A DNA stretch of 64,000 nucleotides from Bacteroides sp. SM23_62_1 (GCA_001304505.1 LJUQ01000001.1:855-64854), one strand, 5' to 3'; numbered from the stretch's first letter, positions 17,044 through 40,554 are shown. Numbers and translations are program-made. The notes: generated from the letters alone by a model not told the origin.

Positions 17044-17053
17044 TATATAGCAT

Positions 17054-17674: not shown

Positions 17675-17716
17675 CATTGCCCGGTGATGCCGGGCGCCAT
17701 ATATTCTTTGATGCTG

Positions 17717-17745
17717 GTCCGGTTGATAGCCGGACTTTTTTTTTT
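17717..17745 (+). terminator. Rho-independent terminator after the deacetylase gene
   Basis: gtccgg ttgatag ccggac followed by a run of 10 T. Confidence 0.75.
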
Positions 17746-17750
17746 GGCGG

Positions 17751-17840
17751 GTACAGAGGATCACGGAGAATAAGTGAGTTACACAGAGTAACAACTCGTA
17801 AGTTCTCTTATCATCTCTGTGGCTCCCTGTGACCATGATC
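17751..17840. repeat. CACRGAG-type periodic inverted repeat
   Basis: Left arm units acagagg / cacggag / aagtgag / cacagag. The right arm contains ctctgtgg / ccctgtga, the same unit in inverted orientation. Confidence 0.5.
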
Positions 17841-18037
17841 AAGCTTCCAGTAACCTGGATTTAAAGAGTCATAAAATGTTTATGATTTAGGATTAATGAA
17901 TTAACGATTTGCAATTTTAGAAGTTTTTCAGATCATAAATCGTTAATCAACTAATCTCAAATCAAAGATTTTTCCCGGTAAACATTCCTGAGATCCTCAA
18001 TAATTCATTAAGTTTACATAGTAAAATTTATTACCCT

Positions 18038-19324: not shown

Positions 19325-19327
19325 CCA

Positions 19328-20365: not shown

Positions 20366-20800
20366 TCATTTCGTCACATATGACAATATGCCCACTGCCT
20401 GTCCTTCCTTACCTTCCTGGAAAGAGATAAATACATGGTAAATACCGGTTTTCTGGCACATGAAGTTAAAAGGATTATACTCCTCACCTGTATCTTTATT
20501 GTAGGAACTGAATATTAATTTATTACTATCGTATAGCTGAAGAATAGCTTTTCCGTTTGATCCTTCTGCCGTACAGATTGAAAAGCGATAAATATTGTTC
20601 TTGCTTAGCACAAGAGGGTATCTGGCAACAGGAGGGAGCTGGCTGGGTTGTGCAGCTTCCAGAATAACCTGGAAATCTTTTAAATAGGTTGCATCTTTTC
20701 CTGAGTTTGCAGAGCATTGTTCAATAAAATCTGAGCTGAATTGTGGAAATAATTGTGCAGACAGGAATAATGCAAAGAATATCAGTATATATCGTCTCAT
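20366..20800 (-). CDS. Hypothetical secreted protein
   Basis: 144 aa with an N-terminal signal peptide (MRRYILIFFALFLSAQLF). Starts 1 nt after the upstream gene's stop. Confidence 0.5.
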   Translation of the reverse strand: MRRYILIFFALFLSAQLFPQFSSDFIEQCSANSGKDATYLKDFQVILEAAQPSQLPPVARYPLVLSKNNIYRFSICTAEGSNGKAILQLYDSNKLIFSSYNKDTGEEYNPFNFMCQKTGIYHVFISFQEGKEGQAVGILSYVTK

Positions 20801-20801
20801 G

Positions 20802-21707
20802 TCATATAGAAATTAACTGGTTTCTGATTTGTTCTGTTTTACGGATTATATTTTTAAGCTGGTTATCGGTTATATTTACGACACTTTCCTCTTTTTGAAC
20901 AATCATGATCATACCATCCTGTTCTACTGTTTCCGGTTCACCCATTTTATAAGTAATCTCTATATTATCAAATTCATTTTTTAATTCAGACAGGGTTTTG
21001 ATCATATCAGCGATGGCTTCATGGTCTTTATAGTTGTTCAGGATAAGCATAATATTATTCAGGTTTATCTTTTGTTCCCCTATCCTTTCATTAAGCTCAT
21101 TACTCCTTTTTTCTTCAGCAACCTGGGTGACTAAGTACATTCCCTCAATCCATGTCCCGGCAATCATCAGGGCGCTGAGATGGCCACGGTTATTTTCCCT
21201 GAGATAGGAATCCATGTTATTAAAGCTGTTGACAGAGATAAACATCAGAGAGTCGATATTTTCCCGGCTTGTTGCCAGCCTTTTAAGGGTGTTGAAATCA
21301 AAAAACTGGCCGACCTTAAGGCCATCGGCAAGTTTATTGATGGCGGTAAGATAGTCAACAATCTGTGTGCTTTTGTCATAAATATTCAGGTATCCGAGAT
21401 CAGCACCGAACACTCCCAGGCTGTATGCCATCTTAAAGCTTGTATTGTATTTGTCAACGTAATCGGTGGTGGACAGATATTTGGTTGAAAAAGGTATGCC
21501 AAGCTCTTTTATCAGCGCAGCCATTTCAATCGGGGATGATACGTTCTGCACAATTTCCTCAAGGGCTTCACTGGAGATGGTAAGGGTTTCTGTCATCAGC
21601 ACTGAATCAGGAACTTCAAATTCAGCACCCGGCTGTCTTCCCTGCCTGGATTGGCAGGAAAAGAGCACCAGAACAGAAAGATACAGAAAGATTAATTGTC
21701 TGAACAT
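20802..21707 (-). CDS. Hypothetical lipoprotein
   Basis: 301 aa. Signal peptide with a lipobox-like LFSC. Predicted mostly helical, with no known motif. Confidence 0.55.
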   Translation of the reverse strand: MFRQLIFLYLSVLVLFSCQSRQGRQPGAEFEVPDSVLMTETLTISSEALEEIVQNVSSPIEMAALIKELGIPFSTKYLSTTDYVDKYNTSFKMAYSLGVFGADLGYLNIYDKSTQIVDYLTAINKLADGLKVGQFFDFNTLKRLATSRENIDSLMFISVNSFNNMDSYLRENNRGHLSALMIAGTWIEGMYLVTQVAEEKRSNELNERIGEQKINLNNIMLILNNYKDHEAIADMIKTLSELKNEFDNIEITYKMGEPETVEQDGMIMIVQKEESVVNITDNQLKNIIRKTEQIRNQLISI

Positions 21708-21796
21708 GGTATTTGGTAGTTATATGTAAGAAAAACAAAATTAAAAATAATTCTTTTTAATGAAGAGATTGCAATCCGGGTGAAAATTAAATATGT

Positions 21797-21850
21797 ACTC
21801 ACCCCCCTGCCCTCTCTCGAGAGAGAGGGGAGAACCAATGGGGGGTAAGT
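21797..21850. repeat. Nested palindromic repeat, copy 3 (inverted orientation)
   Basis: actcacccccctgccctctctcgagagagaggggagaaccaatggggggtaagt. Its reverse complement aligns with copies 1 and 4, including the TTGGTTC core. Confidence 0.7.
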
Positions 21851-21858
21851 CCTGAATC

Positions 21859-24800: not shown

Positions 24801-24906
24801 TAAGGAAACTCCTGACATACCTTTGCTCTTCTTCCTCCACTCCACCATCCTGCTTGGTGATAAGTGCGAAAAGTTGCATCAGGGCTTTCAGGATCTCCTC
24901 ACTCAT
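21859..24906 (-). CDS. ABCG-like fused ABC transporter (ATPase + ABC-2 permease) with a 260-aa N-terminal regulatory extension
   Basis: 1015 aa. Walker A GSSGSGKTT, signature SGGQRKR, Walker B ILFVDEPTSGLS, then about 6 TM helices. The N-terminus has a helical TerB-like segment followed by a beta-rich FHA-like segment (IYLNG...GSTVKL); both N-terminal assignments are tentative. Confidence 0.85.
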   Translation of the reverse strand: MSEEILKALMQLFALITKQDGGVEEEEQRYVRSFLKRQIADTKYDEYYSLFKEYAGLNDLDQDNSGSREIKLTSVLDSVKILGICKKITSTLNQTQKVIVLVRLYELVNANRKFTDQRMAIITTVAEVFKIDKNEKADIEYFVTGNSPEKINGKNFLVINDDGDIPPDFLHIPTEKIDGEIIILMIPSVGLYFIKYTGNEDIYLNGLIISNRRIYLFASGSTVKLPKGMPVYYSDVASHYLQDKTTIRISYQVQDITYLFPDGVPGIRNINFSEGQGKLIGIMGSSGSGKTTLLNILSGLTPPTTGSIIINGVDLYQDKAKLQGVIGLIPQDDLLIEELTVFQNLYFNAKLCFRDKTNEEIRELTDKTLASLGLGEIRDLKVGSPFNKFISGGQRKRLNIALELIREPSILFVDEPTSGLSSRDSENVMDLLRELALKGKLVFVVIHQPSSEIFKMFDNIVFLDIGGYLIYYGNPVEAIMYFKRIDAQINSDIGECPVCGNVNPEMIFNIIESRVVDEFGNDTEERKMIPETWARTFSEQEKITTTEIVTESPPRNLRIPGWLSQFGIFSIRDFLSKISNRQYVLLTMLEAPVLGFILSYIIRYIADPNSDIYIFRENENIPVYIFMSLIVALFLGLTVSAEEIFRDRKMLKRESFLSLSKSSYLLSKILILFLISAIQAITYILIGNTVLGINGMTFYYWFALFTTAACANLIGLNVSASFNSAITIYIIIPLIMIPMMVLSGAMFSFDKLNRVVGSVDKVPWIAEIMPTKWSYEALMVRQFKDNQFQKQFYPIKKAESVADFKQVYLLPELNNRLEKNRDEFDLKGSVSETINDLVLLKNEISKENILVPDIIFQNVEDISPEKINGKLLDQIKLHLEKLDEHYSREFVTATNQRENMVMYFMEQRPGLYNRMKDMYHNETVEEHVRKVFEKNKMVEYRNGLIQQIDPVYKDPFPRNWFGFRSHFFAPRKYFLGRYFDTYWFNMGFIWFLTILFYITLYLDLLKKLVQGFRKN

Positions 24907-24962
24907 GGTTATTCAATATTTAATGCACTTAATATTGTAGGATTAAATACTATTAGAATATC

Positions 24963-25337
24963 TCAATAGCTTATTATTTCAAAAGGAATCCTGATCATTT
25001 CCGAGTATTCCATTCCGGCTTCCTGCATGTCTTCATCATCTTCCAGATAGAACCATTTTACCAGCACATCATGGCCTTCTTCAATCATTTCCTCAAACAT
25101 TGTAAGAATATCGAGTATTACTTTGGATGAGGCTGTATTAAAATAGGTCAGTTTGAAGTTAAAAACTGTTTTTTGAGCCGGATTATGTGCATATTCCTCA
25201 ATCCACCTGAGGACCGGTTCATAAAATGTATTAACATCTTCCGGAAGTGATCTTCCTGCAATTTCAAAAAATTCATTATCCACATCAAGTATTACCTGCG
25301 GAGTGTCATCTGTTTTATCAATTTTCAATGGTTCCAT
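24963..25337 (-). CDS. DUF1987 / SiaC-like partner-switch phosphoprotein
   Basis: 124 aa. TPQVILD...EIAGRSLPEDVNTFYEPVLRWIEEY and KLTYFNTASSK are hallmark DUF1987 motifs. Confidence 0.75.
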   Translation of the reverse strand: MEPLKIDKTDDTPQVILDVDNEFFEIAGRSLPEDVNTFYEPVLRWIEEYAHNPAQKTVFNFKLTYFNTASSKVILDILTMFEEMIEEGHDVLVKWFYLEDDEDMQEAGMEYSEMIRIPFEIISY

Positions 25338-25347
25338 GAGGGGAATT

Positions 25348-25932
25348 TTATTTAATTCTGGGTATGATGGCTGTTAAAAGAAAAAAAGATAATTTATCCG
25401 TTAAGGGCAGAAAATGATATTCAAGTTTGTTCCCGGTTTTTCGCCGTATATCTATCAGTCCAAGGCCTGCTCCCCCTTTCTCTGACAGGGTTCCATCCCT
25501 CATTTGTTTCATATAAAGATCTTTCAGATGGGAATCATCCATTTCATTAATATTGTCTAACATTTCTGTTAATACCAATATTTTCTCCTTTAAAACAGCA
25601 TTCCCGGTTGTGATCTGAAAAGCTTCAGCAGTGTTGCTCACCAGGAAAATTCCTTTTCCAGAATAAAGATAATTGCCTGATTCGTAAACATCGGCATGTC
25701 TGCTGATATTTTGAAGGCATTCAACCAAAACATGAAAAACAACACGCTGAACACTGGCTGCTTCCTCATTTTCTTCCATTTGAGCTTCGGCCAGGGAGAT
25801 GAAAGCTTTGGTTATCTGATGGGTAATCTTACCCTCATAAACCAGCTTTATTTCATTTGTCTTCATCGACTGGTAGAGATCGAAGACATATTCAAGAAAA
25901 CCGGTTATTTCCTGTTTGGGTTTTGCTGGCAT
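25348..25932 (-). CDS. SiaB-like protein kinase (HATPase-fold, anti-sigma-kinase-like)
   Basis: 194 aa. YEGKITHQI...VFHVLVECLQNISRHA...GGAGLGLIDIRRKTG resembles the SiaB/DUF6272 family. Sits 10 nt upstream of the DUF1987 gene. Confidence 0.7.
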   Translation of the reverse strand: MPAKPKQEITGFLEYVFDLYQSMKTNEIKLVYEGKITHQITKAFISLAEAQMEENEEAASVQRVVFHVLVECLQNISRHADVYESGNYLYSGKGIFLVSNTAEAFQITTGNAVLKEKILVLTEMLDNINEMDDSHLKDLYMKQMRDGTLSEKGGAGLGLIDIRRKTGNKLEYHFLPLTDKLSFFLLTAIIPRIK

Positions 25933-26330
25933 TATTATGTTTGTGTTGAGACTAAATTAGTAAAATTAATAGAATGAGGTTAAAATACCGGTGGTGTCTT
26001 AGACTAATTGGCTTTGGATTTTTTCATTCCCTCATCCCGCTATGTGAATTTGGGGCGTTATCATAACTTAGAAATTTGGAATTATTTCTATTACAAGGCT
26101 TTTAAAAAATTCTCTCAGATCAACCTGGGTCTGACACGGCTCCGCCTGGGGCGGAATCCCTGCCTGCTCCGAAGGCTGGCCGATTTGGCATACAGGTACG
26201 AGAAATAATTAATTGTTTTCACCAATACATTGACATGGAGTTGTTTTACAGCCCTATACAGAGAGGGTAATAAATGTTTCCTGATTTGCAACAAACCAAT
26301 CAAGCTTTCAAGAGATTAACTGGCTTTAAA

Positions 26331-28958
26331 TTAGAACTCAATCCCTATTATCAGCACATCATCAATCTGTTTTGCATTGCCCATCCATTCTTCGAAATCC
26401 TGTCTGAAGTGATGATAATACTGATTCATTGTAAAATGATGGTTTTTGGAAATAATATCACGTATTCTTCCTGGAGCATATTTTTTATTTTCCGGACCAC
26501 CCAGTTGATCAGGCAAACCATCGGTATAGAAAAAAATCTTATCTCCCGGCTGGTATTGAACAACATGATTTGTAAAATTCTCTTCAGCTCTTTTTTTACT
26601 TGGTATTCCTCCAATGGCCTTACGATCCCCTTTATATTCAATAAGTTCTTTATTTCTTAACAGGTAAAGTGGGCGGTGTGCACCTGAAAACTGAAGTTCC
26701 TGTCTGGCCGGAATAATTTTTAGGAATGCAACATCCATTCCATCCCTGGCATCCGCATCTTCCGAATCCTGCTTCAGGGTGTATCGAACACCCTGATGCA
26801 ACAGGTCACAGATCTCACCTGCTGTATAATCACGGTCACGGTCGACCAGGTTATTCAACAGGAAATATCCAATGAATGATAATAATGCACCCGGCACACC
26901 ATGGCCGGTACAGTCAACCGCTGCCAGGTAAATAACATCTGATTTTGGGAAAAACCACGGGAAATCGCCACTGATTACATCCCTTGGTTTATAATAAATA
27001 AATGAACGTGAAAAATGTTTCTGTATTTGTTTTATCCCTGGTAATATACTGCTCTGGATACGCTGGGCATAGTTGATACTATCCTCTATCTTCCTGTTCT
27101 TTATCTGGAGTTCCTGTTCAATGCGTTTTGCCTCTGTGATATCATGCCCCACAAATAGAATAGTTTCAAGTTCATGGTCGCTGAATTCAGGTATCGCATC
27201 AATACTCATAATCCTTTCTGAGTGCTTTTCTCCAATAGTAAGGGGGATGGTCAGCAACTGATTACTTTTAACCGGGTTTGATTTTATTGAGTGAAGAGTC
27301 TTGTTGAAATAATCTCCCAGAATATCCGGAAGCTCAATTTCCGAAATATTTTTGTTGATTATGTTTTTGGGTTGATTACTGGTATAATCTTCAATTACAG
27401 GATTGGCATAATAGAACCTTCCTTCCAGGCTGAGCCGGATAATCATGTCGAGGCTGTTTTCAGATAATGATTGCATCCTGGTTCTCATACGCTCTTCTTT
27501 TTCTGCTCGGCGCTTCTCGGTGATGTCACGTGAATTCAAAATAATTCCATTTAAAGCTGGATCATCAATGCGGTTTCTTGCTGTTGTTTCGAGAAAAACA
27601 ATCTGACCATCCTTCCTGACGAAAGTATATTGTATCGTAGGAAATTCATCAGGATTTTCAATAATATGTTGAAAAAGTGATTTCAGGTTGGATTGACCTT
27701 CCAGTGAAAGACGTTCAAAATCTTTTCCTTTCATCATTTCTTCCGGGGAGTAACCAAGAATGTTCAGGACAGAAGGGCTTATGTAAATGATTTTTAGATC
27801 TTTATCATATATGGAGATAATCTCACTGGCATTTTCAAGCAACCAGTGCAATCTTTTCTGGGCATTTTCCACCTCAAGAATCTTAGCTTCCAGTTGCTGG
27901 TTCGTTTTTTGTAATTCTTTCTGAGTGGCCTCCATGATCTCGGCGTTTTCCCGCAACTGTTCCTCATTCTGCTTTAATTCAAGCGTCATCTTCTGCGATT
28001 CTGCAAGCAGTTGTTCAGTTTTCTGGTTAATCCTGAGATTGAATACTGTTCTGGCAATGATCTCACTTAATTCTTTTACCAGCGTAATAGTCAGGTCAGG
28101 GATCGTTTCATGGAGTGATGTTATCTCCATAACACCCTGCAGATGATCGTCTGAAATCAAGGGTACCAGTAATAGGCTGGATGGTTTTTTATCACCCAGT
28201 AAACCGGATGAGATGGTAAAGTAGTCTTCCGGGATTTCGGTCCGGTAAATATAGTCCCGTTCATATGCACACTGGCCGATCAATCCGAAACCAAGTGGAA
28301 ACTCGTTTGTCTTGTATTTCTTTCGACTGTAAGCAAACGTTGATAAACTTACAAGCTTATTTGATTCTTCATGGTACAGGTAAATAGCACCTTGAATGGC
28401 ATCAATATATTTTACCAGATGCTCAAGAACATAATCTCCAAGTTCTTCCAGCTTATTATAGATTCTCAGGATATTGGAGATAAGGTTTTTTCCTTCAGAT
28501 ATCCAATTCTGCTCTGATTCTTTCTTGTGATTGGCCAGAAGATTCTCCCTCATTACGAGAAGAGATTTGCCCAGAATATCATGCTCTCCTTCAGGTTCTA
28601 TTCTTATATCATAATTGCCTTCCCCGATTTCTTTTGCAAAATAGGCATTCTTGTTAATGATTTTATCTTTACTATCGATCAGATTCTTGTACACAGAGAT
28701 ATCATAATCCCTTATTTTTAGAAAATAATAAATAACATAAGCCAGCATTACGGGAATAAGGTAAAGAATAAAAATTTCAGGATGGGTTACATGTAACCTG
28801 AGGATTTCGGAAAGACTTATTTTAAGTTGGTGATGAATCAGGATAATAAAAATGGTTAAAAAGGGGAATGCCAGTCCGGTAATGGCAGCAATAATAATTG
28901 CTGTGCGCTTATCTGGTAATTTGATTAAACCATTGGCCTTTTTATCTGGTGTTATCAT
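26331..28958 (-). CDS. Membrane-anchored GAF-PAS-PAS-PP2C (SpoIIE/SiaA-like) serine phosphatase
   Basis: 875 aa. Two N-terminal TM helices, a GAF module (GFGLIGQ...LLLVPL), a Q/E-rich coiled coil and PAS repeats. The C-terminal SpoIIE domain has GDFPWFF...AAVDCTGHGVPGALLS...FYTDGLPDQ. Confidence 0.85.
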   Translation of the reverse strand: MITPDKKANGLIKLPDKRTAIIIAAITGLAFPFLTIFIILIHHQLKISLSEILRLHVTHPEIFILYLIPVMLAYVIYYFLKIRDYDISVYKNLIDSKDKIINKNAYFAKEIGEGNYDIRIEPEGEHDILGKSLLVMRENLLANHKKESEQNWISEGKNLISNILRIYNKLEELGDYVLEHLVKYIDAIQGAIYLYHEESNKLVSLSTFAYSRKKYKTNEFPLGFGLIGQCAYERDYIYRTEIPEDYFTISSGLLGDKKPSSLLLVPLISDDHLQGVMEITSLHETIPDLTITLVKELSEIIARTVFNLRINQKTEQLLAESQKMTLELKQNEEQLRENAEIMEATQKELQKTNQQLEAKILEVENAQKRLHWLLENASEIISIYDKDLKIIYISPSVLNILGYSPEEMMKGKDFERLSLEGQSNLKSLFQHIIENPDEFPTIQYTFVRKDGQIVFLETTARNRIDDPALNGIILNSRDITEKRRAEKEERMRTRMQSLSENSLDMIIRLSLEGRFYYANPVIEDYTSNQPKNIINKNISEIELPDILGDYFNKTLHSIKSNPVKSNQLLTIPLTIGEKHSERIMSIDAIPEFSDHELETILFVGHDITEAKRIEQELQIKNRKIEDSINYAQRIQSSILPGIKQIQKHFSRSFIYYKPRDVISGDFPWFFPKSDVIYLAAVDCTGHGVPGALLSFIGYFLLNNLVDRDRDYTAGEICDLLHQGVRYTLKQDSEDADARDGMDVAFLKIIPARQELQFSGAHRPLYLLRNKELIEYKGDRKAIGGIPSKKRAEENFTNHVVQYQPGDKIFFYTDGLPDQLGGPENKKYAPGRIRDIISKNHHFTMNQYYHHFRQDFEEWMGNAKQIDDVLIIGIEF

Positions 28959-29752
28959 TTTTTCTCCTGATGAGCTTTACGTTTTGTTATGATCCCATTG
29001 GCAATGATTTTGGAAAGGTTTTTCAATGTCCATTCAGCCTGATCGTCGAAATTCTTAAAAGAAGCAAGTTCTATGATACCAATAGTATCCTTATTTACCA
29101 ACAAAGGAACAATTAGCAGATTTATCGGAGAACCGGATCCCAGTCCTGAGACTACAATCATATAATGCTCAGGAATATGATTAATGTTCATGATCGTTTT
29201 GTTCTTTGCTACCTGTCCTGTCAGACCTTCTCCTGCTTTAAATGAAGCCGGTGGCTTTTCTGAAGCCCAGGCAAATGTACTTGAGGCATAGAATTCAGTA
29301 TCTTTTTCATCCTTCAGGTAAAACACTCCCTGCACGATATCAAATTCTTTTGCCAGATTCTGCAGGATCTTCTCAGTATAACCGTCTAAAGATTCCTTAA
29401 AATCTATTTTTGGCACAACGAAAGATGCAAGATCATCAATATCGATGTCGTATGGAGCAATCATAGATTCTATGCCGGATTTAGGAATTTCTTCTGATTC
29501 AATTGCAGTTTCCGGTTTATCCTGGATTGAATGGCCCATATGAATCTCACTGATCTGTAAGATAGAGATCAGGAAAATAACAACACCACAGGCGAAAATC
29601 AGGAAAAGATAAAGGTATATAATATTGCCTATTACCACTTGCTGGTTAAGATTGATATTATTCCATAATGTTATAAAGAGAATGAAGGAACATAATGTAA
29701 GAACGATAAAGGCAATAATCATCAAGGTCCGATATTTATCTTTCCTGAACAT
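28955..29752 (-). CDS. Small membrane-anchored stand-alone GAF protein
   Basis: 265 aa. Two TM helices, then a GAF module (GEGLTGQ...SGLGSGSPINLLIVPL) paralogous to those in the two large sensors. Its stop overlaps the phosphatase start (ATGA). Confidence 0.7.
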   Translation of the reverse strand: MFRKDKYRTLMIIAFIVLTLCSFILFITLWNNINLNQQVVIGNIIYLYLFLIFACGVVIFLISILQISEIHMGHSIQDKPETAIESEEIPKSGIESMIAPYDIDIDDLASFVVPKIDFKESLDGYTEKILQNLAKEFDIVQGVFYLKDEKDTEFYASSTFAWASEKPPASFKAGEGLTGQVAKNKTIMNINHIPEHYMIVVSGLGSGSPINLLIVPLLVNKDTIGIIELASFKNFDDQAEWTLKNLSKIIANGIITKRKAHQEKK

Positions 29753-29759
29753 AAATGAC

Positions 29760-30323
29760 CTATTTTTTTAACAAAGATACAAATTCAATGATCTGATTGG
29801 TATTTAATAATTTGTCTGGTTTTACAGCAGTTAAAGCTGATGTACACATTGTACTTATTTCACAATCATGGGGATCCTGGATTATGCACAGGCCATTATG
29901 TCGTTTTAATTCAGCGAAGCCCTTCGTGCCATCACGGTTGGCACCGGATAAAAGTATTCCGGCCATGTTTTTATGATAGGTGTCAGCTGCTGAGGCAATA
30001 CAAAGGTCAATGGATGGCCTGGAGTGGTATATTGGCTCATCAGTTGAAAGAGAAATTCTGAAATCGTTTTCGATCATCATATGGTAATTTGCAGGAGCAA
30101 GGTAGACAATACCATTACAAACCCGTGTTTTATCTTCAGGTTCAACCACAGGTAATGAGGAATTAGCCTGCAGAACCTCCCGGAAACCCATACTTAACTG
30201 TTTCAACCTGTGCAAGCATAAAAAAACCGGGAAATCAGTATGAACCGGCAAACTCTTAAGGATGCCTGTCACGGTATGAAAACTTCCGGCTGAACCACCT
30301 ATCATCAGGGCATACAAATTCAT
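29760..30323 (-). CDS. cheB: CheB-like protein-glutamate methylesterase, catalytic domain only (no receiver domain)
   Basis: 187 aa. Candidate catalytic Ser in IGGSAGS, His in FLCLHRL and Asp in GANRDG, in the canonical CheB order. Confidence 0.8.
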   Translation of the reverse strand: MNLYALMIGGSAGSFHTVTGILKSLPVHTDFPVFLCLHRLKQLSMGFREVLQANSSLPVVEPEDKTRVCNGIVYLAPANYHMMIENDFRISLSTDEPIYHSRPSIDLCIASAADTYHKNMAGILLSGANRDGTKGFAELKRHNGLCIIQDPHDCEISTMCTSALTAVKPDKLLNTNQIIEFVSLLKK

Positions 30324-31141
30324 GATGTTTTCAAGTATATCTTTTCTTTTGTAAAAATATGACTGAATTGATTTGAAATATCACAATCTTTCAGTGATTC
30401 CATTTCACCAAGGATCAGGTATCCACCATTTTGTAACGCACCTGTCACCCTGTTCAGGATATTATTTTTGAGTTCCTGTTTAAAGGATAACAGCTGATTA
30501 CGTATAAGAATAATATCACACAGACCAGGTATTCCGATGAGATTAAGTGACTGTTTTTTAATTCTGGCATTCTTGATCAATGAGGTTTCACGTTCGATAA
30601 GATTATTTTTTAAGTGAAAATATGAATTAAAATTATTCATGCCTCCCGAACCGTGATAGTTATTTATACTAGCTTCCATTTTATCCTTGAGAAAAATACC
30701 GGAGCTGATTATTTCAAGGCTTCGGTAGCTCAGAGTGGAAGCATGGATGAAAGATCTTGCCATCAGTCCTGTCTCCTCAAGCAAGATGGCGATGGAAAAT
30801 AATTCATCACCGGAAACACAACGTGGCAACCATATTGTTAACAGGTCTGATTTTTCAGATATGGAAGGAAGAATTGTGTTTCTCAGGATCAACCACACAT
30901 CCGGGTCCCTGAACATCTCGGTAGATCCACCGGAAATATCATAAAGAAAATCATCAAAAAAGACTTCATCATCAATAAGCCGATTAATCAGGATTCCTGT
31001 TTTGTTTAAGAAATGTTTATCCAGGATTTTCCTTATCCTGAAGCGCAGGTGGTTGAGTGTATACCCTGACAGGTCAATCTGATAATGACTGTATATAGCT
31101 TTGATCAGGGTATTTGTTTCCTCAATACTGATTCCAAACAT
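30320..31141 (-). CDS. Divergent CheR-like methyltransferase paralogue
   Basis: 273 aa. TEMFRDPDVW and IWLPRCVSGDELFSIAILL match the CheR fold. The SAM-region motifs are altered (ASTLS instead of A[ST]DI; IRNQLLSF instead of CRNVxIYF). ATGA overlap with the cheB-like gene. Confidence 0.7.
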   Translation of the reverse strand: MFGISIEETNTLIKAIYSHYQIDLSGYTLNHLRFRIRKILDKHFLNKTGILINRLIDDEVFFDDFLYDISGGSTEMFRDPDVWLILRNTILPSISEKSDLLTIWLPRCVSGDELFSIAILLEETGLMARSFIHASTLSYRSLEIISSGIFLKDKMEASINNYHGSGGMNNFNSYFHLKNNLIERETSLIKNARIKKQSLNLIGIPGLCDIILIRNQLLSFKQELKNNILNRVTGALQNGGYLILGEMESLKDCDISNQFSHIFTKEKIYLKTS

Positions 31142-31167
31142 TCGTGAAAACCGGAGATTACTGGTGA

Positions 31168-33861
31168 TTATTTTTCGTCTACAATTCTTTTAAGTCTGTC
31201 GATTTCTTTATTTGCTTCTTCAAGAAGTTGATATTTCAATTTTCTTTCGGTGATATCCTGTCCGAGATAGTAAACTTTAAAAATCGCACCATTTTCATCC
31301 TTTACCGGAGTAAATGTGGACATGATCCAGACTTCCTCTCCGGTAGGTTTTGTTCTTCTGATCACACCACTATATGGTTTATCTTTCATGATATCATTCC
31401 AGATCTTTTCAAACTGTTCTCTTTCTGTTCGTTGAAGGAATGTCCGGTTATTCTTTCCGATCATTTCCCTTCTTGAAAAGCCTGTTACTTTTTCAAAATT
31501 CTCATTGACTTCAAGAATCTGACCGGCCGGGGAATATACACATTTAATCAGGGCCTGGTCAACAGCATCACTGAAAGACTGCATTTCAATATTTGCTCTT
31601 TTAATTTCGCCTGACTGTTTTTCAAGTGATTCCTGCTGGATTTTTGTCTCCGTTATATCTATTGCGATATTCAGAACTTTAAATGGGACGCCATCTTTAT
31701 CAGGTATGGGAGCATATGTCTGCTGAAGCCATATTTCATTTCCGGTAAAAAGTTTGATTTTCTCCACTTTGAAAAGCGTTTTTCCCTCCCTCAGCAATTG
31801 CCAGAATTCCTTATAGGTTTCAGTATGCCGGCTAATCCCAAGGATTTCATGGTATTTTTTACCAATGATATGATCCTTATGTGTTTCGAGAAGAAGAAGG
31901 AATTTATCATTGATATTGATAAGTTCCTCATTCATATTATATTCTGCAACCAGTGAGGAATTATGAATAGCGTTGAGGATACCGGAGATCTCTGATTCGC
32001 GCCTTGCTGATTCTTCCTGTGTTACCTGTAATTCTTCTACATGCTGCCTCATCTTCTCTTCCTGTTCAGCCATATCCCGTGCCTGTTGCTGGGATTGTTC
32101 CAGCAACAGGCTGGTTCTCATGGTGATCCTGACAGAAGAGATGGCTGATGCAATGCTCTCACTGATAATTTCAATAAAAAGAACCTCATGTTCCTGAAGG
32201 ATATTTAAGGATGCAATCTCAATAACACCTAACAACTGATCTTCCAGCTTCAGCGGTACCAGAAGCAGACAACGGGGTTTGGTATCACCCAGGCCGGAAG
32301 TTATCCGAAGATATTCTTCCGGGATCTCTGTGAGGAAAATTTTTTGCTTTTCAATAGCACATGTTCCAACAAGACCTTCGCCAAGACGAACAGTATCCGT
32401 AAGGTATTTTTTCCTGTCAAATGCAAAAGCTGCAGCAAGCTCAAGTATATTCTCATCATCCGTATTTGTAAGATAAAGGGCACCAATACTGGCATTAAGA
32501 TATTTTACCAGATTTTGTATAACCTTATCAGCAAGTATGTTGAGATCATTACTGTGAATTCTCAGTATTTCTTCAATTTTTGCCAGTCCTTCGTTGATCC
32601 ATCTTCTTTTTTCACTTTCAGCCTGATGTTTCTGGTCCTCATTCCTTGCAGCCTGGAGATATTTGCCCATTTCAATTAAAGCATTTCCCAGTATATCCTC
32701 CTCGCTAAGTAATGGAAGTGTTACATCTTCCTGTTTCCTGCCTATTTCTCCAGCAAACCTTGCTTTTTCCTTGAGGTTGCCTGTAAAATTACCGAGCATC
32801 ATATTTATTTCGTATATCTCATCGTTTCCCTCGTCAGAAATTTCACCCGGTAACCGGCCCAGAACAAGTGCCTTGATAAAAGAATTTAATCTTCTGAGAG
32901 GATCCTTAATGGAAATGGAAAGAAAAATAGTGTAGGTGATTAAAATTGAAGCCGATAATAAAATCACAATAAAGAGTCCAATTCCAATATTCCTGCTGGC
33001 GGATATTAAATCCTGTTTAAACATCGCATTCAGTGAACTGGCATCTTCAGAAACAATATTACTGAAAGTTCTTATCTGACCCCTGATTCCTTCAAACTGG
33101 GATAATCCGATTTCACGATCAATGATAATAGTATTCTGAATGTACTGGCTTAGATTATTATTATTGTTGTTAACCCGTTGTTTTACAGATGTGCCAGCAA
33201 CAATCTGTGATACAACTAATTCTGAATCAATCAGGGAGTATATCTCTTGCAGTTTATCAGTTAGCTTTTTAGCGAGAGAGTGTGTGGGATTATGAAAATA
33301 TCCCTCAATAAAAATTTCTAATTGCTCTAATTCTGCCTGGAGGACAGGTCTGTTTGCGTTCTCCAGTATTTGAAATAAATCCTCCAAAAGGGATATGACA
33401 TGCCCATGAAGCCCCCAATTACTATATCCTCTTTCCCTTAACTTGGATACTAAGATCTGGAAGGTATTTTCAGTTTTAGAAAGGTTATCAAGAAAAAGTT
33501 CGAGTTTTTGATGTAACAATTCGTTTTTCTGAACAAACCGCTCTGTTTTCAGCTCCTGGACCAGGTTAATGGTTTCAAGATATATCCGGTCGAAATCATC
33601 CATATGCCCACTTCTGCCTGTTTCATAAAAAGCATTGGTGTACTGGTCATATAAAAGCAATCCTGTTATTGAACCGGATAATTGTTTTGAGTTGATGGAT
33701 AGTTCATTTAATCGTTCAGAAAGGGCATAATATTCACGGAATGTGCCCAGGAAACTGAATAATGAAAGACCAATTATCAACCAGAGGATAATGGAAGAGA
33801 CTGTAAGGGTAAAAAATCTTGACCTGATGGATATTTGCCTGAGTGACATTTTATGCTTCAA
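31168..33861 (-). CDS. Membrane sensor with a helical extracytoplasmic domain, HAMP, GAF, coiled coil and two PAS domains; no output domain
   Basis: 897 aa. TM1 at aa 17-40, a 250-aa helical loop, TM2 at aa 292-316. HAMP (PLRRLNSFIKALVLGRLPGE), GAF (GEGLVGT...LLLVPL), a Q/E coiled coil, then PAS repeats up to the stop codon. Confidence 0.8.
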   Translation of the reverse strand: MKHKMSLRQISIRSRFFTLTVSSIILWLIIGLSLFSFLGTFREYYALSERLNELSINSKQLSGSITGLLLYDQYTNAFYETGRSGHMDDFDRIYLETINLVQELKTERFVQKNELLHQKLELFLDNLSKTENTFQILVSKLRERGYSNWGLHGHVISLLEDLFQILENANRPVLQAELEQLEIFIEGYFHNPTHSLAKKLTDKLQEIYSLIDSELVVSQIVAGTSVKQRVNNNNNNLSQYIQNTIIIDREIGLSQFEGIRGQIRTFSNIVSEDASSLNAMFKQDLISASRNIGIGLFIVILLSASILITYTIFLSISIKDPLRRLNSFIKALVLGRLPGEISDEGNDEIYEINMMLGNFTGNLKEKARFAGEIGRKQEDVTLPLLSEEDILGNALIEMGKYLQAARNEDQKHQAESEKRRWINEGLAKIEEILRIHSNDLNILADKVIQNLVKYLNASIGALYLTNTDDENILELAAAFAFDRKKYLTDTVRLGEGLVGTCAIEKQKIFLTEIPEEYLRITSGLGDTKPRCLLLVPLKLEDQLLGVIEIASLNILQEHEVLFIEIISESIASAISSVRITMRTSLLLEQSQQQARDMAEQEEKMRQHVEELQVTQEESARRESEISGILNAIHNSSLVAEYNMNEELININDKFLLLLETHKDHIIGKKYHEILGISRHTETYKEFWQLLREGKTLFKVEKIKLFTGNEIWLQQTYAPIPDKDGVPFKVLNIAIDITETKIQQESLEKQSGEIKRANIEMQSFSDAVDQALIKCVYSPAGQILEVNENFEKVTGFSRREMIGKNNRTFLQRTEREQFEKIWNDIMKDKPYSGVIRRTKPTGEEVWIMSTFTPVKDENGAIFKVYYLGQDITERKLKYQLLEEANKEIDRLKRIVDEK

Positions 33862-33959
33862 ATTAATGTTGCCTTAATATTGCTGGTTGTTAAAAGGTTG
33901 ACCCAGTCCTCCAATACAATAATACTTAATAATTAAGAACATACCCAAAGTAAAAGAGG

Positions 33960-34799
33960 TCATTTTTTAAAATAAGCCTGATTTTTCTTCTCAAATTGTG
34001 ATGCTAAAGGACCCAGAATAGTTTCGTGGACACCTAATACAAGACAGCCAGGGCTGTTCAGGCTATCGTAAAATAATTTAAAGACCTTATTCTGAAGATC
34101 GTAATTAAAATATATAACCACATTTCGGCAAATAATAAAATCATATGATACAGGGAAAGGATTTACATCCTGCACAAGGTTCATTTTTTTATAGACTGGC
34201 TTGTCGATGAGGAAGGGATGTATCTTAATAATATCCCTGGTTTTATCGATGGAGAAATATTTGGAATAATCGACATCCTCGTATTCCCCGGCCTGGTTTT
34301 GTCGGATTACAGCGTCAAAGTTATCAAGATAAGTGAGGTTGAAACGATATTTATAAATCCCGGTTTTAGCCGTTTCAAGAACATCGGGATTAATATCAGT
34401 GGCATATATATTGGCTTTATGGAACAGATCCAGCTCATTTAACATGATCATCATGGAATATACTTCCTGGCCGGTCGAACACCCGGTATGCCAGATGTTA
34501 ATCTCTTTTTTGTCCTTGAACAAAGGAATAATATCATAACGCAGGGAGTTCCAGACTGGCGGATCCCGGAACAATTCGGTAGTATTCACCGTAATATCTT
34601 TTACAATTTTTTCCAGGAAACTTTCATTGTCCTCCAGCCTTTCAATAAATGAATGAAAATCAAGATTGTTGTCAAAAAGGACTTTAGCCAGGCGTCTTTT
34701 TAGCGATTTATCTGAATAATCGGTAAAGTCGTAGCTCGAAAGGTTTCTAACTTTCTCAACAAAAGTATTTAATTCATAATCCTCAATTTCCTGCTGCAT
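33960..34799 (-). CDS. cheR: CheR-type protein-glutamate O-methyltransferase
   Basis: 279 aa. TELFRDPPVW, IWHTGCSTGQEVYSM, ATDINPDVLETAKTGIY and FIICRNVVIYF give the complete canonical CheR motif set. Confidence 0.85.
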   Translation of the reverse strand: MQQEIEDYELNTFVEKVRNLSSYDFTDYSDKSLKRRLAKVLFDNNLDFHSFIERLEDNESFLEKIVKDITVNTTELFRDPPVWNSLRYDIIPLFKDKKEINIWHTGCSTGQEVYSMMIMLNELDLFHKANIYATDINPDVLETAKTGIYKYRFNLTYLDNFDAVIRQNQAGEYEDVDYSKYFSIDKTRDIIKIHPFLIDKPVYKKMNLVQDVNPFPVSYDFIICRNVVIYFNYDLQNKVFKLFYDSLNSPGCLVLGVHETILGPLASQFEKKNQAYFKK

Positions 34800-35629: not shown

Positions 35630-36259
35630 CTATTTCTTCAGATGGTAACTGGCAGCATTTTCGTCAAAAGCCATTTCTATTACTTCAAATAAAACAAGAT
35701 TGACCAGAATATCCTCTGCCTTTCTTCTTGGAATCTTGGCTATTCTACAAAATTTTGAAAGAGAAACCTGTTGATTCATGCTCAGGTAATCGAGCAGAAT
35801 CTTCTCACGATCACCGTATTTCAGGTATATCCCTTTTTTCCTTTTTTCTCTTTCCCAGATTTTCAGCAATACCCTGGTTGCTAAAATATTCTGATCTTTA
35901 ATCCGGACATATGCCAGCCATTTCCCCTCTTTTGAAAGGGCAAAATAGGGTCTTTTTTCTGCTTTCGGAATATCAATTTCAAGAATGGTCTTTCCATTGA
36001 TATCCCATTTACGACTCAGAAAATGAACTTCAGGTTTGCAATATAGCTGGGCAGCAGCTTCTATCATATGATATTCTTCTTCCGACTGAATACCGGTTAT
36101 GTTTCCATTATCCTTAACACCAATCAATAGTTTCCCTCCTTCAGTGTTGGAGAAAGCAATCAGAGTTCGGGCAATTTTTCGTGCATCACTGATTTCATAT
36201 TTGAAATCCAGTGTCAGGCCCTCTCCCTGGCTGATCAGTTGACGGATATAACGACTCAT
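35630..36259 (-). CDS. AlbA_2 (Schlafen-like / divergent AAA-4) domain protein with a C-terminal wHTH-like region
   Basis: 209 aa. EGLTLDFKYEISD...IAFSNTEGGKLLIGVKDNGNITGI is the typical AlbA_2 motif. Confidence 0.65.
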   Translation of the reverse strand: MSRYIRQLISQGEGLTLDFKYEISDARKIARTLIAFSNTEGGKLLIGVKDNGNITGIQSEEEYHMIEAAAQLYCKPEVHFLSRKWDINGKTILEIDIPKAEKRPYFALSKEGKWLAYVRIKDQNILATRVLLKIWEREKRKKGIYLKYGDREKILLDYLSMNQQVSLSKFCRIAKIPRRKAEDILVNLVLFEVIEMAFDENAASYHLKK

Positions 36260-38435: not shown

Positions 38436-38462
38436 TAAAGATGTTTTATTTAAAGACTTATA

Positions 38463-38562
38463 AACCACAAAGGTGCACAAAGGGTAACACAAAGGTACAA
38501 TGAGGTTAACTTTAATACTCCTTTGTGTACCTTAGTGCAATCCTTTGTATTCCTTAGTGGTT
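38463..38562. repeat. CACAAAGG-type 11-nt-periodic inverted repeat (about 44-nt arms)
   Basis: Left arm aaccacaaaggtgcacaaagggtaacacaaaggtaca. The reverse complement of the right arm is aaccactaaggaatacaaaggattgcactaaggtaca. Confidence 0.6.
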
Positions 38563-38678
38563 AAATAAAATTTAAGCCAATCAATGATATTAAATATTAA
38601 TTGAGAAACTTGAGATTCATCTTTATATGGATATCTGATTTTTCAAAAAAATACTATAAAATATATTTTCGATTGCCT

Positions 38679-40460: not shown

Positions 40461-40554
40461 ATTTTGACTATCTCCTGCATTAACTAAATTTATATTCTGT
40501 ATCCTCTGCGGTTAAAAATCTATGCATTCTGTGGTTAATAAAAAAATAGAAATT

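What the first reader, a model, noticed from the sequence alone, without database searches (positions are those of the whole stretch)
24963..34799. Che-like methylation module (2x CheR, receiver-less CheB) joined to a SiaA/B/C-type partner switch, with no CheA, CheW, MCP or CheY
Eight co-directional minus-strand genes sit together:
- CheR (33960..34799)
- an output-less HAMP-GAF-PAS membrane sensor (31168..33861)
- a divergent CheR (30320..31141)
- a CheB catalytic domain without a receiver (29760..30323)
- a small TM-GAF protein (28955..29752)
- a TM-GAF-PAS-PP2C phosphatase (26331..28958)
- a SiaB-like kinase (25348..25932)
- a DUF1987/SiaC-like protein (24963..25337)
Two junctions are ATGA start/stop overlaps (30320-30323 and 28955-28958), which argues for translational coupling. 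Reversible glutamate methylation by CheR/CheB is classically confined to MCP-CheA-CheW arrays, and the window contains none of these. SiaABC-type switches normally control a diguanylate cyclase, and none is present here either. My inference is that methylation/demethylation tunes GAF/HAMP sensors that gate a Ser/Thr phosphatase-kinase partner switch. As far as I know that wiring has not been characterised.
Basis: partly seen in the sequence, partly recalled or inferred. Interest (0 to 1): 0.85.

Follow-up and report, generated by a model that had tools for sequence, protein, structure and literature searches.

The report
Methylation-tuned phospho-switch upstream of an ABC exporter
A conserved 11-gene operon of Bacteroidota joins chemotaxis-type methylation enzymes and membrane GAF sensors to a SiaABC-type threonine-phosphorylation switch, and its likely target is a neighbouring ABC exporter rather than a c-di-GMP cyclase; none of this has been tested experimentally.

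Summary
All eight ORFs lie at the stated coordinates. The domain calls hold: CheR, a divergent CheR, a CheB catalytic domain only, TM-GAF, GAF-PAS-PP2C, a SiaB-family kinase and SiaC. Only HAMP was not detected. The 64-kb window holds no CheA, CheW, MCP, receiver or GGDEF gene.

The cluster is not a chance adjacency. Of 62 species-level loci with enough upstream sequence, 53 carry CheB directly upstream of the PP2C-SiaB-SiaC genes, and 48 of them carry both CheRs and the TM-GAF gene, in the same order and tightly packed.

In 67 of 69 loci, SiaC is followed by a TerB-FHA-ABC(G-type) exporter, a lipoprotein and a small secreted protein (window 20366-24906). That exporter trio also occurs alone. 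The signalling genes therefore look like regulatory layers added in front of it.

In Bacillus cereus, the CheR-like RsbM methylates the non-MCP sensor RsbK upstream of a PP2C partner switch.

My reading is a new variant built from known modules. Three things remain inferred: the methyl acceptor, the SiaC target and the exported substrate.

The parts
33960..34799 (-). CheR1: canonical CheR-type glutamate methyltransferase, probably the active enzyme
   Evidence: Pfam CheR 5.6e-34 plus CheR_N. Best PDB hit is B. subtilis CheR 5FTW, 1.8e-28. The motifs TELFRD, GCSTGQE, ATD and CRNVIIYF are conserved in 56 orthologues.
31168..33861 (-). Output-less membrane sensor: 2 TM with a ~240-aa outside loop, a HAMP-like segment, GAF, a coiled coil and 2 PAS. 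An optional member of the operon.
   Evidence: Pfam GAF and PAS; TM segments. Residues 363-888 are collinear with PP2C residues 101-625 (31% identity, 7e-50). A gene of this type lies beside CheB in 36 of 53 CheB-containing loci. HAMP was not detected by Pfam.
30320..31141 (-). CheR2: divergent CheR paralogue, possibly non-catalytic. Its stop overlaps the CheB start (ATGA).
   Evidence: Pfam CheR 7.9e-20. Conservation among 55 orthologues is low. The Asp of 'ATDI' is replaced and 'RNVxIYF' has become 'RNQ...'. Overlap confirmed.
29760..30323 (-). CheB catalytic domain without a receiver (glutamate methylesterase/deamidase)
   Evidence: Pfam CheB_methylest 2.9e-42. It aligns to T. maritima and Salmonella CheB (3SFT, 1CHD), and the GGSAGS Ser, the CLHRL His and the NxDG Asp are conserved in 63 orthologues. 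More than 5000 homologues were found; all of the best 120 are 179-204 aa and carry the CheB domain only.
28955..29752 (-). TM-GAF protein: 2 TM, a variable Glu/Lys-rich linker and GAF, with no output. It always travels with CheB.
   Evidence: Pfam GAF_2 3.5e-11; TM segments. Its GAF is 35% identical to the PP2C GAF. It is present in 52 of 53 CheB-containing loci and in none of the 9 CheB-less ones. It moves with CheR-CheR-CheB in L067. Its stop overlaps the PP2C start.
26331..28958 (-). SiaA-like phosphatase: 2 TM, a HAMP-like segment, GAF, a coiled coil (S-helix), 2 PAS and PP2C
   Evidence: Pfam SpoIIE, PAS and GAF. NCBIfam SiaA model 1.8e-42 over the PP2C domain. The PP2C metal-binding motifs are conserved in 71 aligned sequences.
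25933..26330 (.). Unusually long 398-bp spacer between the PP2C and SiaB genes
   Evidence: In 76 related loci this spacer has a median of 34 bp and a maximum of 162 bp. No Rfam match. The hairpin is not significant.
25348..25932 (-). SiaB-family (GHKL) protein kinase
   Evidence: NCBIfam SiaB_fam_kinase 157.8 bits, cut-off 85. Pfam DUF6272. PDB 6KKO chain A (P. aeruginosa SiaB) 7.5e-10. The N-box (E71, N75) and GGAGLG are invariant.
24963..25337 (-). SiaC-family phosphoprotein, the switch element
   Evidence: Pfam SiaC 1.1e-41. It aligns to P. aeruginosa SiaC (6KKO/6KKP) with N67-T68 matched. 'YFNTASSK' is conserved in at least 95% of 82 aligned sequences. T68 is the SiaB/SiaA site in P. aeruginosa (PMC8457831).
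21859..24906 (-). TerB-FHA-ABC(NBD)-ABC2(TMD) exporter of the ABCG type with a C-terminal extension. The probable target of SiaC.
   Evidence: Pfam TerB, ABC_tran and ABC2_membrane. NCBIfam TIGR00955, 5.7e-76. In the AF2 model, residues 1-144 are a helical TerB-like domain. Residues 155-240 are an FHA fold (pLDDT 90.3), and all top-50 PDB matches are FHA domains. It follows SiaC in 67/69 loci.
20802..21707 (-). Conserved lipoprotein of unknown family (U301)
   Evidence: Lipobox LFSC at Cys18, an invariant Cys. No Pfam, NCBIfam or PDB match. Conserved downstream of the exporter.
20366..20800 (-). Conserved small secreted protein of unknown family (U144)
   Evidence: Signal-peptide-like N-terminus. 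No Pfam match. One base separates it from U301. Conserved in 67/69 loci.

Best explanation
The unit is an 11-gene operon (window 20366-34799, minus strand) built in three layers.

(1) Output layer. This is an ABCG-type exporter whose cytoplasmic N-terminus carries a TerB-like helical domain and a non-canonical FHA-fold domain. It comes with a lipoprotein and a small secreted protein. The trio also exists alone in related genomes.

(2) Switch layer. This is a SiaABC-type partner switch. The GHKL kinase SiaB phosphorylates SiaC on Thr68, and the membrane GAF-PAS-PP2C phosphatase removes the phosphate. One phospho-form of SiaC then most likely binds the TerB-FHA N-terminus of the adjacent exporter and turns transport up or down. 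This parallels P. aeruginosa, where unphosphorylated SiaC binds and activates the adjacent SiaD.

(3) Input layer. Two output-less membrane GAF sensors are paralogous to the sensor half of the phosphatase: the small TM-GAF protein and the optional 897-aa sensor. They probably form mixed oligomers with the phosphatase. CheR1 methylates and the receiver-less CheB demethylates glutamates on one or more of these sensors, which sets the phosphatase's working point. The candidate sites are the coiled coil after the GAF domain and the Glu-rich linker of TM-GAF. CheR2 looks like a degenerate paralogue and may act as an adaptor.

What is shown: gene content, domain identities, catalytic and phospho-site motifs, the FHA fold and conserved synteny.

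What is inferred: who is methylated, that SiaC targets the exporter, and the direction of each effect. The exported substrate is unknown.
For: One unit:
- The order CheR1-(sensor)-CheR2-CheB-TMGAF-PP2C-SiaB-SiaC-ABC-U301-U144 recurs with different flanking genes. It appears in Bacteroidales, Salinivirgaceae, Marinilabiliales-type MAGs and cultured Fulvivirga maritima.
- 53 of 62 upstream-informative loci have CheB, and 67 of 69 downstream-informative loci have the exporter trio.
- Spacers are 30 bp or less at 89-98% of the CheR2/CheB, CheB/TMGAF, TMGAF/PP2C and SiaB/SiaC junctions.

Switch:
- SiaB-family score is above the curated cut-off, and the kinase matches the P. aeruginosa SiaB structure.
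- The SiaC N67-T68 motif aligns to P. aeruginosa SiaC and is conserved in at least 95% of 82 sequences.
- PP2C motifs are conserved.
- Published mechanism: PMC8457831. That paper also proposes that DUF1987 proteins regulate the adjacent protein.

Output:
- The exporter trio occurs without any signalling gene in L089 and L093, in the same wider neighbourhood as the window.
- It occurs with SiaB-SiaC but no PP2C or CheB within about 10 kb upstream in two Carboxylicivirga loci, L078 and L087 (upstream genes of L078 checked).
- It occurs with PP2C-SiaB-SiaC in 7 loci.
- This gives a nested pattern of regulatory layers.
- The FHA fold sits next to a Thr-phosphoprotein switch.

Input:
- TM-GAF co-occurs with CheB in 52/53 loci against 0/9 without CheB, and it relocates together with CheR-CheR-CheB in L067.
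- The three GAF sensors are paralogues.
- CheR1 and CheB keep their catalytic motifs.
- A coiled-coil motif fitting the classical MCP site pattern EExxA(S/T) is present in 45/63 phosphatases of CheB-containing loci against 2/8 without CheB, and in 34/45 sensor orthologues.
- Three loci add CheD and a full-length REC-CheB next to a classical histidine kinase, still without an MCP, CheA or CheW in view.
- Precedent: RsbM methylates the S-helix of the HAMP-GAF sensor RsbK (PMC4574943).
Against: - There are no experimental data for any member.
- The methyl acceptor is not identified. In the window itself the candidate coiled-coil motif is degenerate (PP2C EIMEAT, sensor EELQVT). The CheB+/CheB- contrast is confounded by phylogeny and rests on only 8 CheB-less sequences.
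- The FHA-like domain lacks the conserved Arg and Ser-x-x-His residues that bind phosphothreonine. The TerB-FHA module is also kept in exporters that have no SiaC. It is therefore not a dedicated SiaC dock.
- Whole genomes could not be searched. Canonical chemoreceptor arrays elsewhere are not excluded, and some Bacteroidetes have chemoreceptors.
- The 80 loci examined are the closest relatives among at least 583, so the frequencies are biased towards this architecture.
- A 398-bp spacer splits the operon in the window.
Confidence: 0.5

Rival explanations
1. The CheR and CheB proteins serve ordinary chemoreceptor arrays (MCP-CheA-CheW) encoded elsewhere in the genome. Their position next to the Sia-type switch would then reflect co-regulation or history, not a shared substrate.
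For: Receiver-less CheB proteins are part of canonical F3 chemosensory systems (PMC9239204). Some Bacteroidetes have chemoreceptors (PMC7390727). In L070, L081 and L082 a CheD and a full-length REC-CheB lie just upstream. Whole genomes were not searched.
Against: No MCP, CheA or CheW lies in the 64-kb window or in the annotated 20-kb neighbourhoods. These were checked via Pfam gene tables, and by window scans. The CheR-CheR-CheB-TMGAF block is packed against the phosphatase gene in 53/62 loci, with stop/start overlaps. It moves as a block with the TM-GAF gene. Flanking genes differ between genomes while the block stays.
Confidence: 0.12
2. The methylation enzymes act on a local protein other than the GAF sensors. 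Candidates are SiaC, SiaB or the TerB-FHA N-terminus of the exporter, whose first residues MSEEILKAL are almost invariant. The enzymes would then tune the switch or the transporter directly.
For: The acceptor is unknown. The exporter's N-terminal helix with two glutamates is nearly invariant. The candidate sensor motif is degenerate in the window.
Against: The exporter N-terminus, SiaB and SiaC are equally conserved in loci without CheR/CheB. The only protein whose presence tracks CheB is TM-GAF. Known CheR substrates are long coiled coils of sensors: MCPs (own knowledge) and RsbK.
Confidence: 0.12
3. The partner switch does not control the neighbouring exporter. SiaC would act on a distant target such as a diguanylate cyclase or a transcription factor, and the exporter genes would merely share a transcript or a neighbourhood.
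For: The known SiaC target is a diguanylate cyclase. The TerB-FHA module exists without SiaC and lacks canonical phosphothreonine-binding residues. The spacer between SiaC and the exporter gene is somewhat longer (median 40 bp).
Against: SiaC is followed by the exporter trio in 67/69 loci, including loci that have lost the phosphatase and the CheR/CheB genes. No GGDEF gene is present in the window or in the annotated neighbourhoods.
Confidence: 0.2

Closest known systems
SiaABCD partner switch of Pseudomonas aeruginosa
   Same: It has a membrane PP2C phosphatase (SiaA), a GHKL kinase (SiaB) and the DUF1987 phosphoprotein SiaC with the Asn67-Thr68 site. The target gene lies directly downstream of siaC.
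   Different: There is no diguanylate cyclase here; the downstream gene is a TerB-FHA-ABC exporter. The phosphatase carries GAF and two PAS domains. Two extra output-less GAF sensors and a CheR/CheR/CheB set are attached. The host is Bacteroidota.
RsbK-RsbM-RsbY sigma-B module of Bacillus cereus
   Same: A CheR-type methyltransferase is encoded next to a non-MCP membrane sensor with HAMP and GAF. It methylates that sensor's signalling helix, and the pathway feeds a PP2C phosphatase partner switch (PMC4574943).
   Different: [quoted passage not shown] B. cereus has no dedicated esterase; here CheB is always present. The switch proteins there are RsbV/RsbW and the output is a sigma factor; here they are SiaB/SiaC and probably a transporter.
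Chemosensory pathways, including alternative-function ones such as Wsp (own knowledge) and F3 systems with receiver-less CheB (PMC9239204)
   Same: They use a CheR methyltransferase and a CheB methylesterase with intact catalytic motifs. In three loci CheD and REC-CheB are also present.
   Different: No MCP signalling domain, CheA, CheW or CheY lies in the window or the neighbourhoods. The presumed acceptors are GAF-PAS sensors.
Rv1747 of Mycobacterium tuberculosis: an ABCG-type exporter with N-terminal FHA domains, regulated by Ser/Thr phosphorylation (own knowledge, not checked in the paper library)
   Same: An FHA-fold domain sits N-terminal to an ABC_tran plus ABC2_membrane half-transporter, beside a Thr-phosphorylation system.
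   Different: Here there is one FHA-like domain, preceded by a TerB-like domain. The canonical phosphothreonine-binding residues are not conserved. The kinase is a GHKL SiaB rather than a Hanks-type kinase.
CheB-CheR fusion sensor proteins (uncharacterised, to my knowledge)
   Same: These also place CheB and CheR domains outside MCP arrays in the same genomes. One example is the 1239-aa CheB-CheR-PAS protein in L073.
   Different: They are single polypeptides, typically with kinase outputs. Here the enzymes are separate proteins in an operon with a PP2C switch.

Membership tests
SiaABCD system | SiaB-family GHKL kinase | tested here: met
   NCBIfam NF038262 scores 157.8 bits (cut-off 85). The equivalog NF038264 scores 71 bits, below its cut-off of 225. 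PDB 6KKO_A matches at 7.5e-10.
SiaABCD system | SiaC (DUF1987) with a phosphorylatable Thr68 | tested here: met
   Pfam SiaC 141.6 bits (cut-off 24.5). N67-T68 aligns with P. aeruginosa SiaC and is conserved in at least 95% of 82 aligned sequences. The equivalog model scores 90.8 bits, below its cut-off of 150.
SiaABCD system | SiaA-type membrane PP2C phosphatase | tested here: inconclusive
   The PP2C domain matches the SiaA model at 1.8e-42, but with 145.8 bits against an equivalog cut-off of 700. The architecture differs (GAF and 2 PAS; HAMP not detected).
SiaABCD system | SiaD diguanylate cyclase as the output | tested here: not met
   There is no GGDEF protein in the window or in the annotated neighbourhoods.
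Chemosensory (Che) pathway | CheA kinase, CheW coupling protein and an MCP with a signalling domain | tested here: not met
   None is present in the 64-kb window or in the annotated 20-kb neighbourhoods (same calls). The rest of the genome was not searchable.
Chemosensory (Che) pathway | CheR methyltransferase and CheB methylesterase with catalytic residues | tested here: met
   CheR1 motifs and the CheB Ser/His/Asp positions are conserved. CheR2 is degenerate. CheB lacks a receiver.
RsbK/RsbM/RsbY-type methylated sensor feeding a PP2C switch | CheR-like gene adjacent to a non-MCP GAF sensor upstream of a PP2C partner switch | tested here: met
   Shown by gene order and domain calls.
RsbK/RsbM/RsbY-type methylated sensor feeding a PP2C switch | The sensor is a hybrid histidine kinase, the phosphatase carries a receiver, and RsbV/RsbW/sigma-B is the output | tested here: not met
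   No HisKA, HATPase_c, receiver, STAS or sigma factor is present in the operon.
RsbK/RsbM/RsbY-type methylated sensor feeding a PP2C switch | Glutamate methylation of the sensor's signalling helix | not testable with these tools
   Only a candidate EExxA(S/T) motif in the coiled coil is available.
FHA-regulated ABC exporter (Rv1747 type) | FHA fold N-terminal to an ABCG-type NBD-TMD | tested here: met
   The AF2 domain model has pLDDT 90.3. All top-50 PDB Foldseek hits are FHA domains (probability 0.90-1.00, TM 0.39-0.59). ABC_tran and ABC2_membrane are present.
FHA-regulated ABC exporter (Rv1747 type) | Canonical phosphothreonine-binding residues (Gly-Arg, Ser-x-x-His) | tested here: not met
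   No conserved Arg or His is found at the expected positions in 40- and 75-sequence alignments.

The most novel reading that the evidence does not exclude
Chemotaxis-style reversible glutamate methylation (CheR, CheB, and in some lineages CheD and a kinase-controlled REC-CheB) provides adaptation or set-point control. It acts on a sensor complex that is neither an MCP nor a kinase. That complex is a hetero-oligomer of paralogous membrane GAF proteins built around a PP2C phosphatase. Its only output is the phospho-state of SiaC. SiaC in turn gates an ABC exporter through a TerB plus non-canonical FHA module. In other words, a sensory-adaptation device is grafted onto a Ser/Thr partner switch that controls transport post-translationally.
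Probability: 0.35. Interest if true: 0.8.

Novelty: new variant of a known kind. Interest (0 to 1): 0.68.

Why it matters
If the wiring is as proposed, three general points follow.

1. CheR/CheB adaptation would not be tied to MCP-CheA-CheW arrays. It could be attached, with its own esterase, to GAF-PAS sensors. So far only the one-way RsbM-RsbK case has experimental support.

2. The SiaC/DUF1987 switch, known only as an activator of a diguanylate cyclase, would have a second and very different class of target, a transporter. This fits the published suggestion that DUF1987 proteins regulate whatever is encoded next to them.

3. It would give a handle on an uncharacterised exporter that is widespread in Bacteroidota. 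Relatives of the SiaB-like kinase were found in at least 583 species-level genomes, and the TerB-FHA module forms 367 clusters at 50% identity.

A cultured organism with a complete genome, Fulvivirga maritima, carries the system, so the questions can be tested directly.

Tried and rejected
- HAMP. Pfam does not detect it in the 897-aa sensor or the phosphatase, even on the isolated segment at E<=10. I kept it only as 'HAMP-like by eye'.
- The 897-aa sensor's outside domain, the lipoprotein U301 and the secreted U144 have no Pfam, NCBIfam or PDB sequence match. The exporter's C-terminal extension has no Pfam match.
- Anti-phage defence: no PADLOC hit for ten of the eleven operon proteins; the exporter was not submitted.
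- RNA elements: no Rfam family in the operon. The hairpin in the 398-bp spacer is not better than shuffles (z -1.2).
- Methylation-site test. The CheB+ versus CheB- contrast for the coiled-coil motif goes the expected way (45/63 against 2/8). It is confounded by phylogeny, and the window's own copies are degenerate. I treat it as a lead only.
- A stand-alone TerB gene upstream of SiaB might have been a general feature. It occurs only in L078.
- Canonical phosphothreonine binding by the FHA-like domain was rejected on the alignments.
- Literature. I found no paper linking DUF1987/SiaC with CheR, or SiaB/SiaC with an ABC transporter or Bacteroidetes. Wuichet and Zhulin 2010 is not held.
- Whether CheA, CheW or MCP genes exist elsewhere in these genomes could not be tested.
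Full report
**1. Observation**

The eight minus-strand ORFs are at exactly the coordinates given. Profile searches confirm the domain calls.

| Coordinates | Result |
|---|---|
| 33960-34799 | CheR (5.6e-34) plus CheR_N |
| 31168-33861 | 2 TM, GAF, 2 PAS, no output domain |
| 30320-31141 | weaker CheR match (7.9e-20) |
| 29760-30323 | CheB methylesterase domain only (2.9e-42), no receiver |
| 28955-29752 | 2 TM plus GAF |
| 26331-28958 | 2 TM, GAF, 2 PAS, SpoIIE/PP2C; the phosphatase part matches NCBI's SiaA model at 1.8e-42 |
| 25348-25932 | Pfam DUF6272; 157.8 bits against NCBIfam 'SiaB family protein kinase' (cut-off 85) |
| 24963-25337 | SiaC/DUF1987 (1.1e-41) |

- Both ATGA stop/start overlaps are in the sequence.
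- HAMP is the one label I could not confirm. Pfam finds none, even on the isolated segment.
- I scanned every ORF of 90 aa or more in the window. None is CheA, CheW, an MCP, a receiver protein or a GGDEF protein.
- The source is the estuary-sediment MAG 'Bacteroides sp. SM23_62_1'.

**2. The cluster is a conserved unit, and it is longer than reported**

I looked at the neighbourhoods of CheB homologues. I also scanned one genome per species with an alignment of the SiaB-like kinase. That scan found at least 583 genomes with a relative, and I examined the closest 80. The 11 window proteins were then mapped onto all loci.

- Of 69 loci with enough downstream sequence, 67 have SiaC followed by the same three genes as in the window. 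These are a 1015-aa TerB/ABC/ABC2 fusion (21859-24906), a 301-aa protein (20802-21707) and a 144-aa protein (20366-20800).
- Of 62 loci with enough upstream sequence, 53 have CheB directly upstream of the phosphatase. Of these 53, 48 have CheR1, CheR2, CheB and TM-GAF together, and 36 have an 897-aa-type sensor gene alongside.
- Flanking genes differ from genome to genome, while the block stays the same.
- Genes are tightly packed: 30 bp or less at 98% of CheR2/CheB junctions, 97% of CheB/TM-GAF, 89% of TM-GAF/PP2C and 89% of SiaB/SiaC.
- The cultured Cytophagales species Fulvivirga maritima (complete genome CP089980.1) has the same arrangement, with one CheR and a split exporter.

**3. Nested architectures**

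The exporter trio occurs in four settings.

- It occurs alone in L089 and L093. Their wider neighbourhood matches the window: DUF6427, purD, polysaccharide deacetylase and a TMEM260-like gene.
- It occurs with SiaB-SiaC but no PP2C or CheB within about 10 kb upstream in two Carboxylicivirga loci, L078 and L087. The upstream genes of L078 were examined directly.
- It occurs with phosphatase-SiaB-SiaC in 7 loci.
- It occurs with the full set, which is the majority.

L091 and L093 both have an LPG-synthase gene just upstream of the block. The eight-gene signalling cassette lies in between in one and is missing in the other. The simplest reading is an exporter unit with regulatory layers added in front of it.

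**4. The switch**

- The kinase keeps the GHKL N-box and GGAGLG motifs and matches the P. aeruginosa SiaB structure 6KKO.
- SiaC aligns along its whole length with P. aeruginosa SiaC. Asn67-Thr68 is matched, and 'YFNTASSK' is conserved in at least 95% of 82 aligned sequences.
- In P. aeruginosa, Thr68 is phosphorylated by SiaB and dephosphorylated by SiaA. Only unphosphorylated SiaC binds the stalk helices of SiaD, the protein encoded next to it. The authors suggest that DUF1987 proteins generally regulate the adjacent protein (PMC8457831).
- The PP2C metal-binding motifs are conserved.

**5. The likely output**

- The transporter belongs to the ABCG-like NBD-TMD type (TIGR00955, 5.7e-76).
- An AlphaFold model of its first 260 residues (pLDDT 82.5) shows two domains. 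The helical domain matches the TerB-like protein PG1108. The beta domain matches FHA domains.
- A model of the beta domain alone (pLDDT 90.3) gives only FHA domains among the top 50 PDB matches, with probability 0.90-1.00 and TM 0.39-0.59. These include Rad53 FHA1, MEK1, kinesin-3 FHAs and the N-terminal FHA of the type VII secretion ATPase EssC.
- The residues that bind phosphothreonine in canonical FHA domains are not conserved. I therefore call it an FHA fold, not a proven phosphothreonine reader.
- The TerB-FHA module forms a family of 367 clusters at 50% identity. In full-length members of 990-1160 aa it is always at the N-terminus.
- The 301-aa protein has a lipobox with an invariant Cys18. 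The 144-aa protein has a signal-peptide-like N-terminus. Neither matches any known family.

**6. The input layer**

- CheR1 keeps all the CheR SAM-binding and catalytic motifs in 56 orthologues.
- CheR2 is poorly conserved and has lost the Asp of 'ATDI' and the 'RNVxIYF' motif. It may not be catalytic.
- CheB keeps the Ser/His/Asp positions that align with solved CheB structures.
- The three GAF proteins are paralogues. The 897-aa sensor (residues 363-888) is collinear with the sensor half of the phosphatase (31% identity, 7e-50). The TM-GAF GAF domain is 35% identical to the phosphatase GAF. Mixed oligomers are therefore plausible.
- TM-GAF is the only protein whose presence tracks CheB: 52/53 with CheB against 0/9 without. 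In L067 it moves together with CheR-CheR-CheB to the other side of the operon.
- A motif fitting the classical MCP methylation pattern Glu-Glu-x-x-Ala-Ser/Thr (own knowledge) sits in the coiled coil after the GAF domain. It is present in 45/63 phosphatases of CheB-containing loci (41 are EEMRAT) against 2/8 without CheB, and in 34/45 sensor orthologues. It occurs only once elsewhere in the 11 window proteins.
- This motif is a lead only. The contrast is confounded by phylogeny, and the window's own copies are degenerate (EIMEAT, EELQVT).
- In three loci, including a complete Saccharicrinis chromosome, the operon is preceded by a classical histidine-kinase C-terminus, CheD and a full-length REC-CheB. 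This is a richer Che-type toolkit, still with no MCP, CheA or CheW in view.

**7. Comparison with what is known**

The closest characterised systems are these.

- SiaABCD has the same switch but a different output.
- B. cereus RsbK-RsbM-RsbY is the key precedent. The CheR-like RsbM methylates the signalling helix of the CHASE3-HAMP-GAF sensor RsbK, and the pathway drives a PP2C partner switch. The authors note that RsbM has no partner esterase (PMC4574943).

Receiver-less CheB is also known in canonical F3 systems. What I did not find described in ten full-text searches is this combination:

- a dedicated CheR plus CheB pair;
- GAF-PAS sensors fused directly to a PP2C;
- SiaB/SiaC;
- an ABC exporter as the neighbour and likely target.

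The output module resembles M. tuberculosis Rv1747, an FHA-carrying ABCG-type exporter under Ser/Thr-phosphorylation control. That comparison rests on my own knowledge and was not checked in the library.

**8. Limits**

- Nothing here is experimental.
- The methyl acceptor, the SiaC target, the sign of each step and the transported substrate are all inferred.
- Whole genomes could not be searched, and some Bacteroidetes do have chemoreceptors. Rival 1 is therefore not excluded.
- The 80 loci are the closest relatives of the query, so the frequencies are biased.
- In the window, the phosphatase and kinase genes are separated by 398 bp, against a maximum of 162 bp in 76 other loci. An internal promoter or a small insertion is possible there.

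**9. Verdict**

This is a real, widely conserved operon. I rate it a new variant assembled from known modules. Interest 0.68.

Noticed in passing
window 25933-26330: The spacer between the phosphatase and SiaB genes is 398 bp. In 76 related loci it has a median of 34 bp and a maximum of 162 bp. It holds a GC-rich hairpin that is unique in the window, has no Rfam match and is not more stable than shuffles.
   Followed up: partly
L093 10001-14507 and L089 10001-14518: The TerB-FHA-ABC exporter and the small secreted protein (plus the lipoprotein in L093) occur without any SiaB, SiaC, PP2C, CheR or CheB gene. The wider neighbourhood matches the window (DUF6427, purD, deacetylase, TMEM260-like). 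L091 and L093 share the upstream LPG-synthase gene, so the signalling cassette behaves as an insertion/deletion unit.
   Followed up: partly
L070 15-2267, L081 37-2278, L082 34-2339: In a Saccharicrinis chromosome and two MAGs the operon is preceded by the C-terminus of a classical histidine kinase, CheD and a full-length REC-CheB (364 aa). These loci therefore carry two CheB genes.
   Followed up: partly
L073 15713-20023 (similar hits in L075): A receiver protein and a 1239-aa CheB-CheR-PAS fusion protein lie just downstream of the operon.
   Followed up: partly
L067 16057-19100 (minus strand): The CheR1-CheR2-CheB-TMGAF block sits downstream of the exporter genes on the opposite strand, not upstream of the phosphatase. 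It moved as one block.
   Followed up: no
L069 about 3229 and L076 about 2035 (minus strand): A divergently transcribed CheR1-like gene (45% identity) lies upstream of the sensor and phosphatase genes, with no CheB in the 20-kb locus. This orphan methyltransferase arrangement recalls RsbM.
   Followed up: no
L078 9258-9632: Carboxylicivirga linearis has a stand-alone 124-aa TerB protein directly upstream of SiaB and no PP2C gene there. This was not seen in any other locus.
   Followed up: yes
window 13993-20317: A TMEM260-like O-mannosyltransferase, a polysaccharide deacetylase, purD and a DUF6427 protein lie next to the operon's 3' end. They recur next to the exporter genes in L004, L005, L089 and L093. 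An envelope-related neighbourhood is possible.
   Followed up: no
window 35630-36259; 36396-41979; 48091-49395; 52184-53356: These regions hold a Schlafen AlbA_2 protein, a GH42 beta-galactosidase with two sulfatases, and two proteins of 434 and 390 aa without any Pfam family.
   Followed up: no
output: The word-indexed protein search with the exporter's first 260 residues returned only proteins of 452 aa or less (fragments or split genes). The exhaustive search found many full-length 990-1160-aa members. The first list is therefore not representative of the family's architecture.
   Followed up: yes
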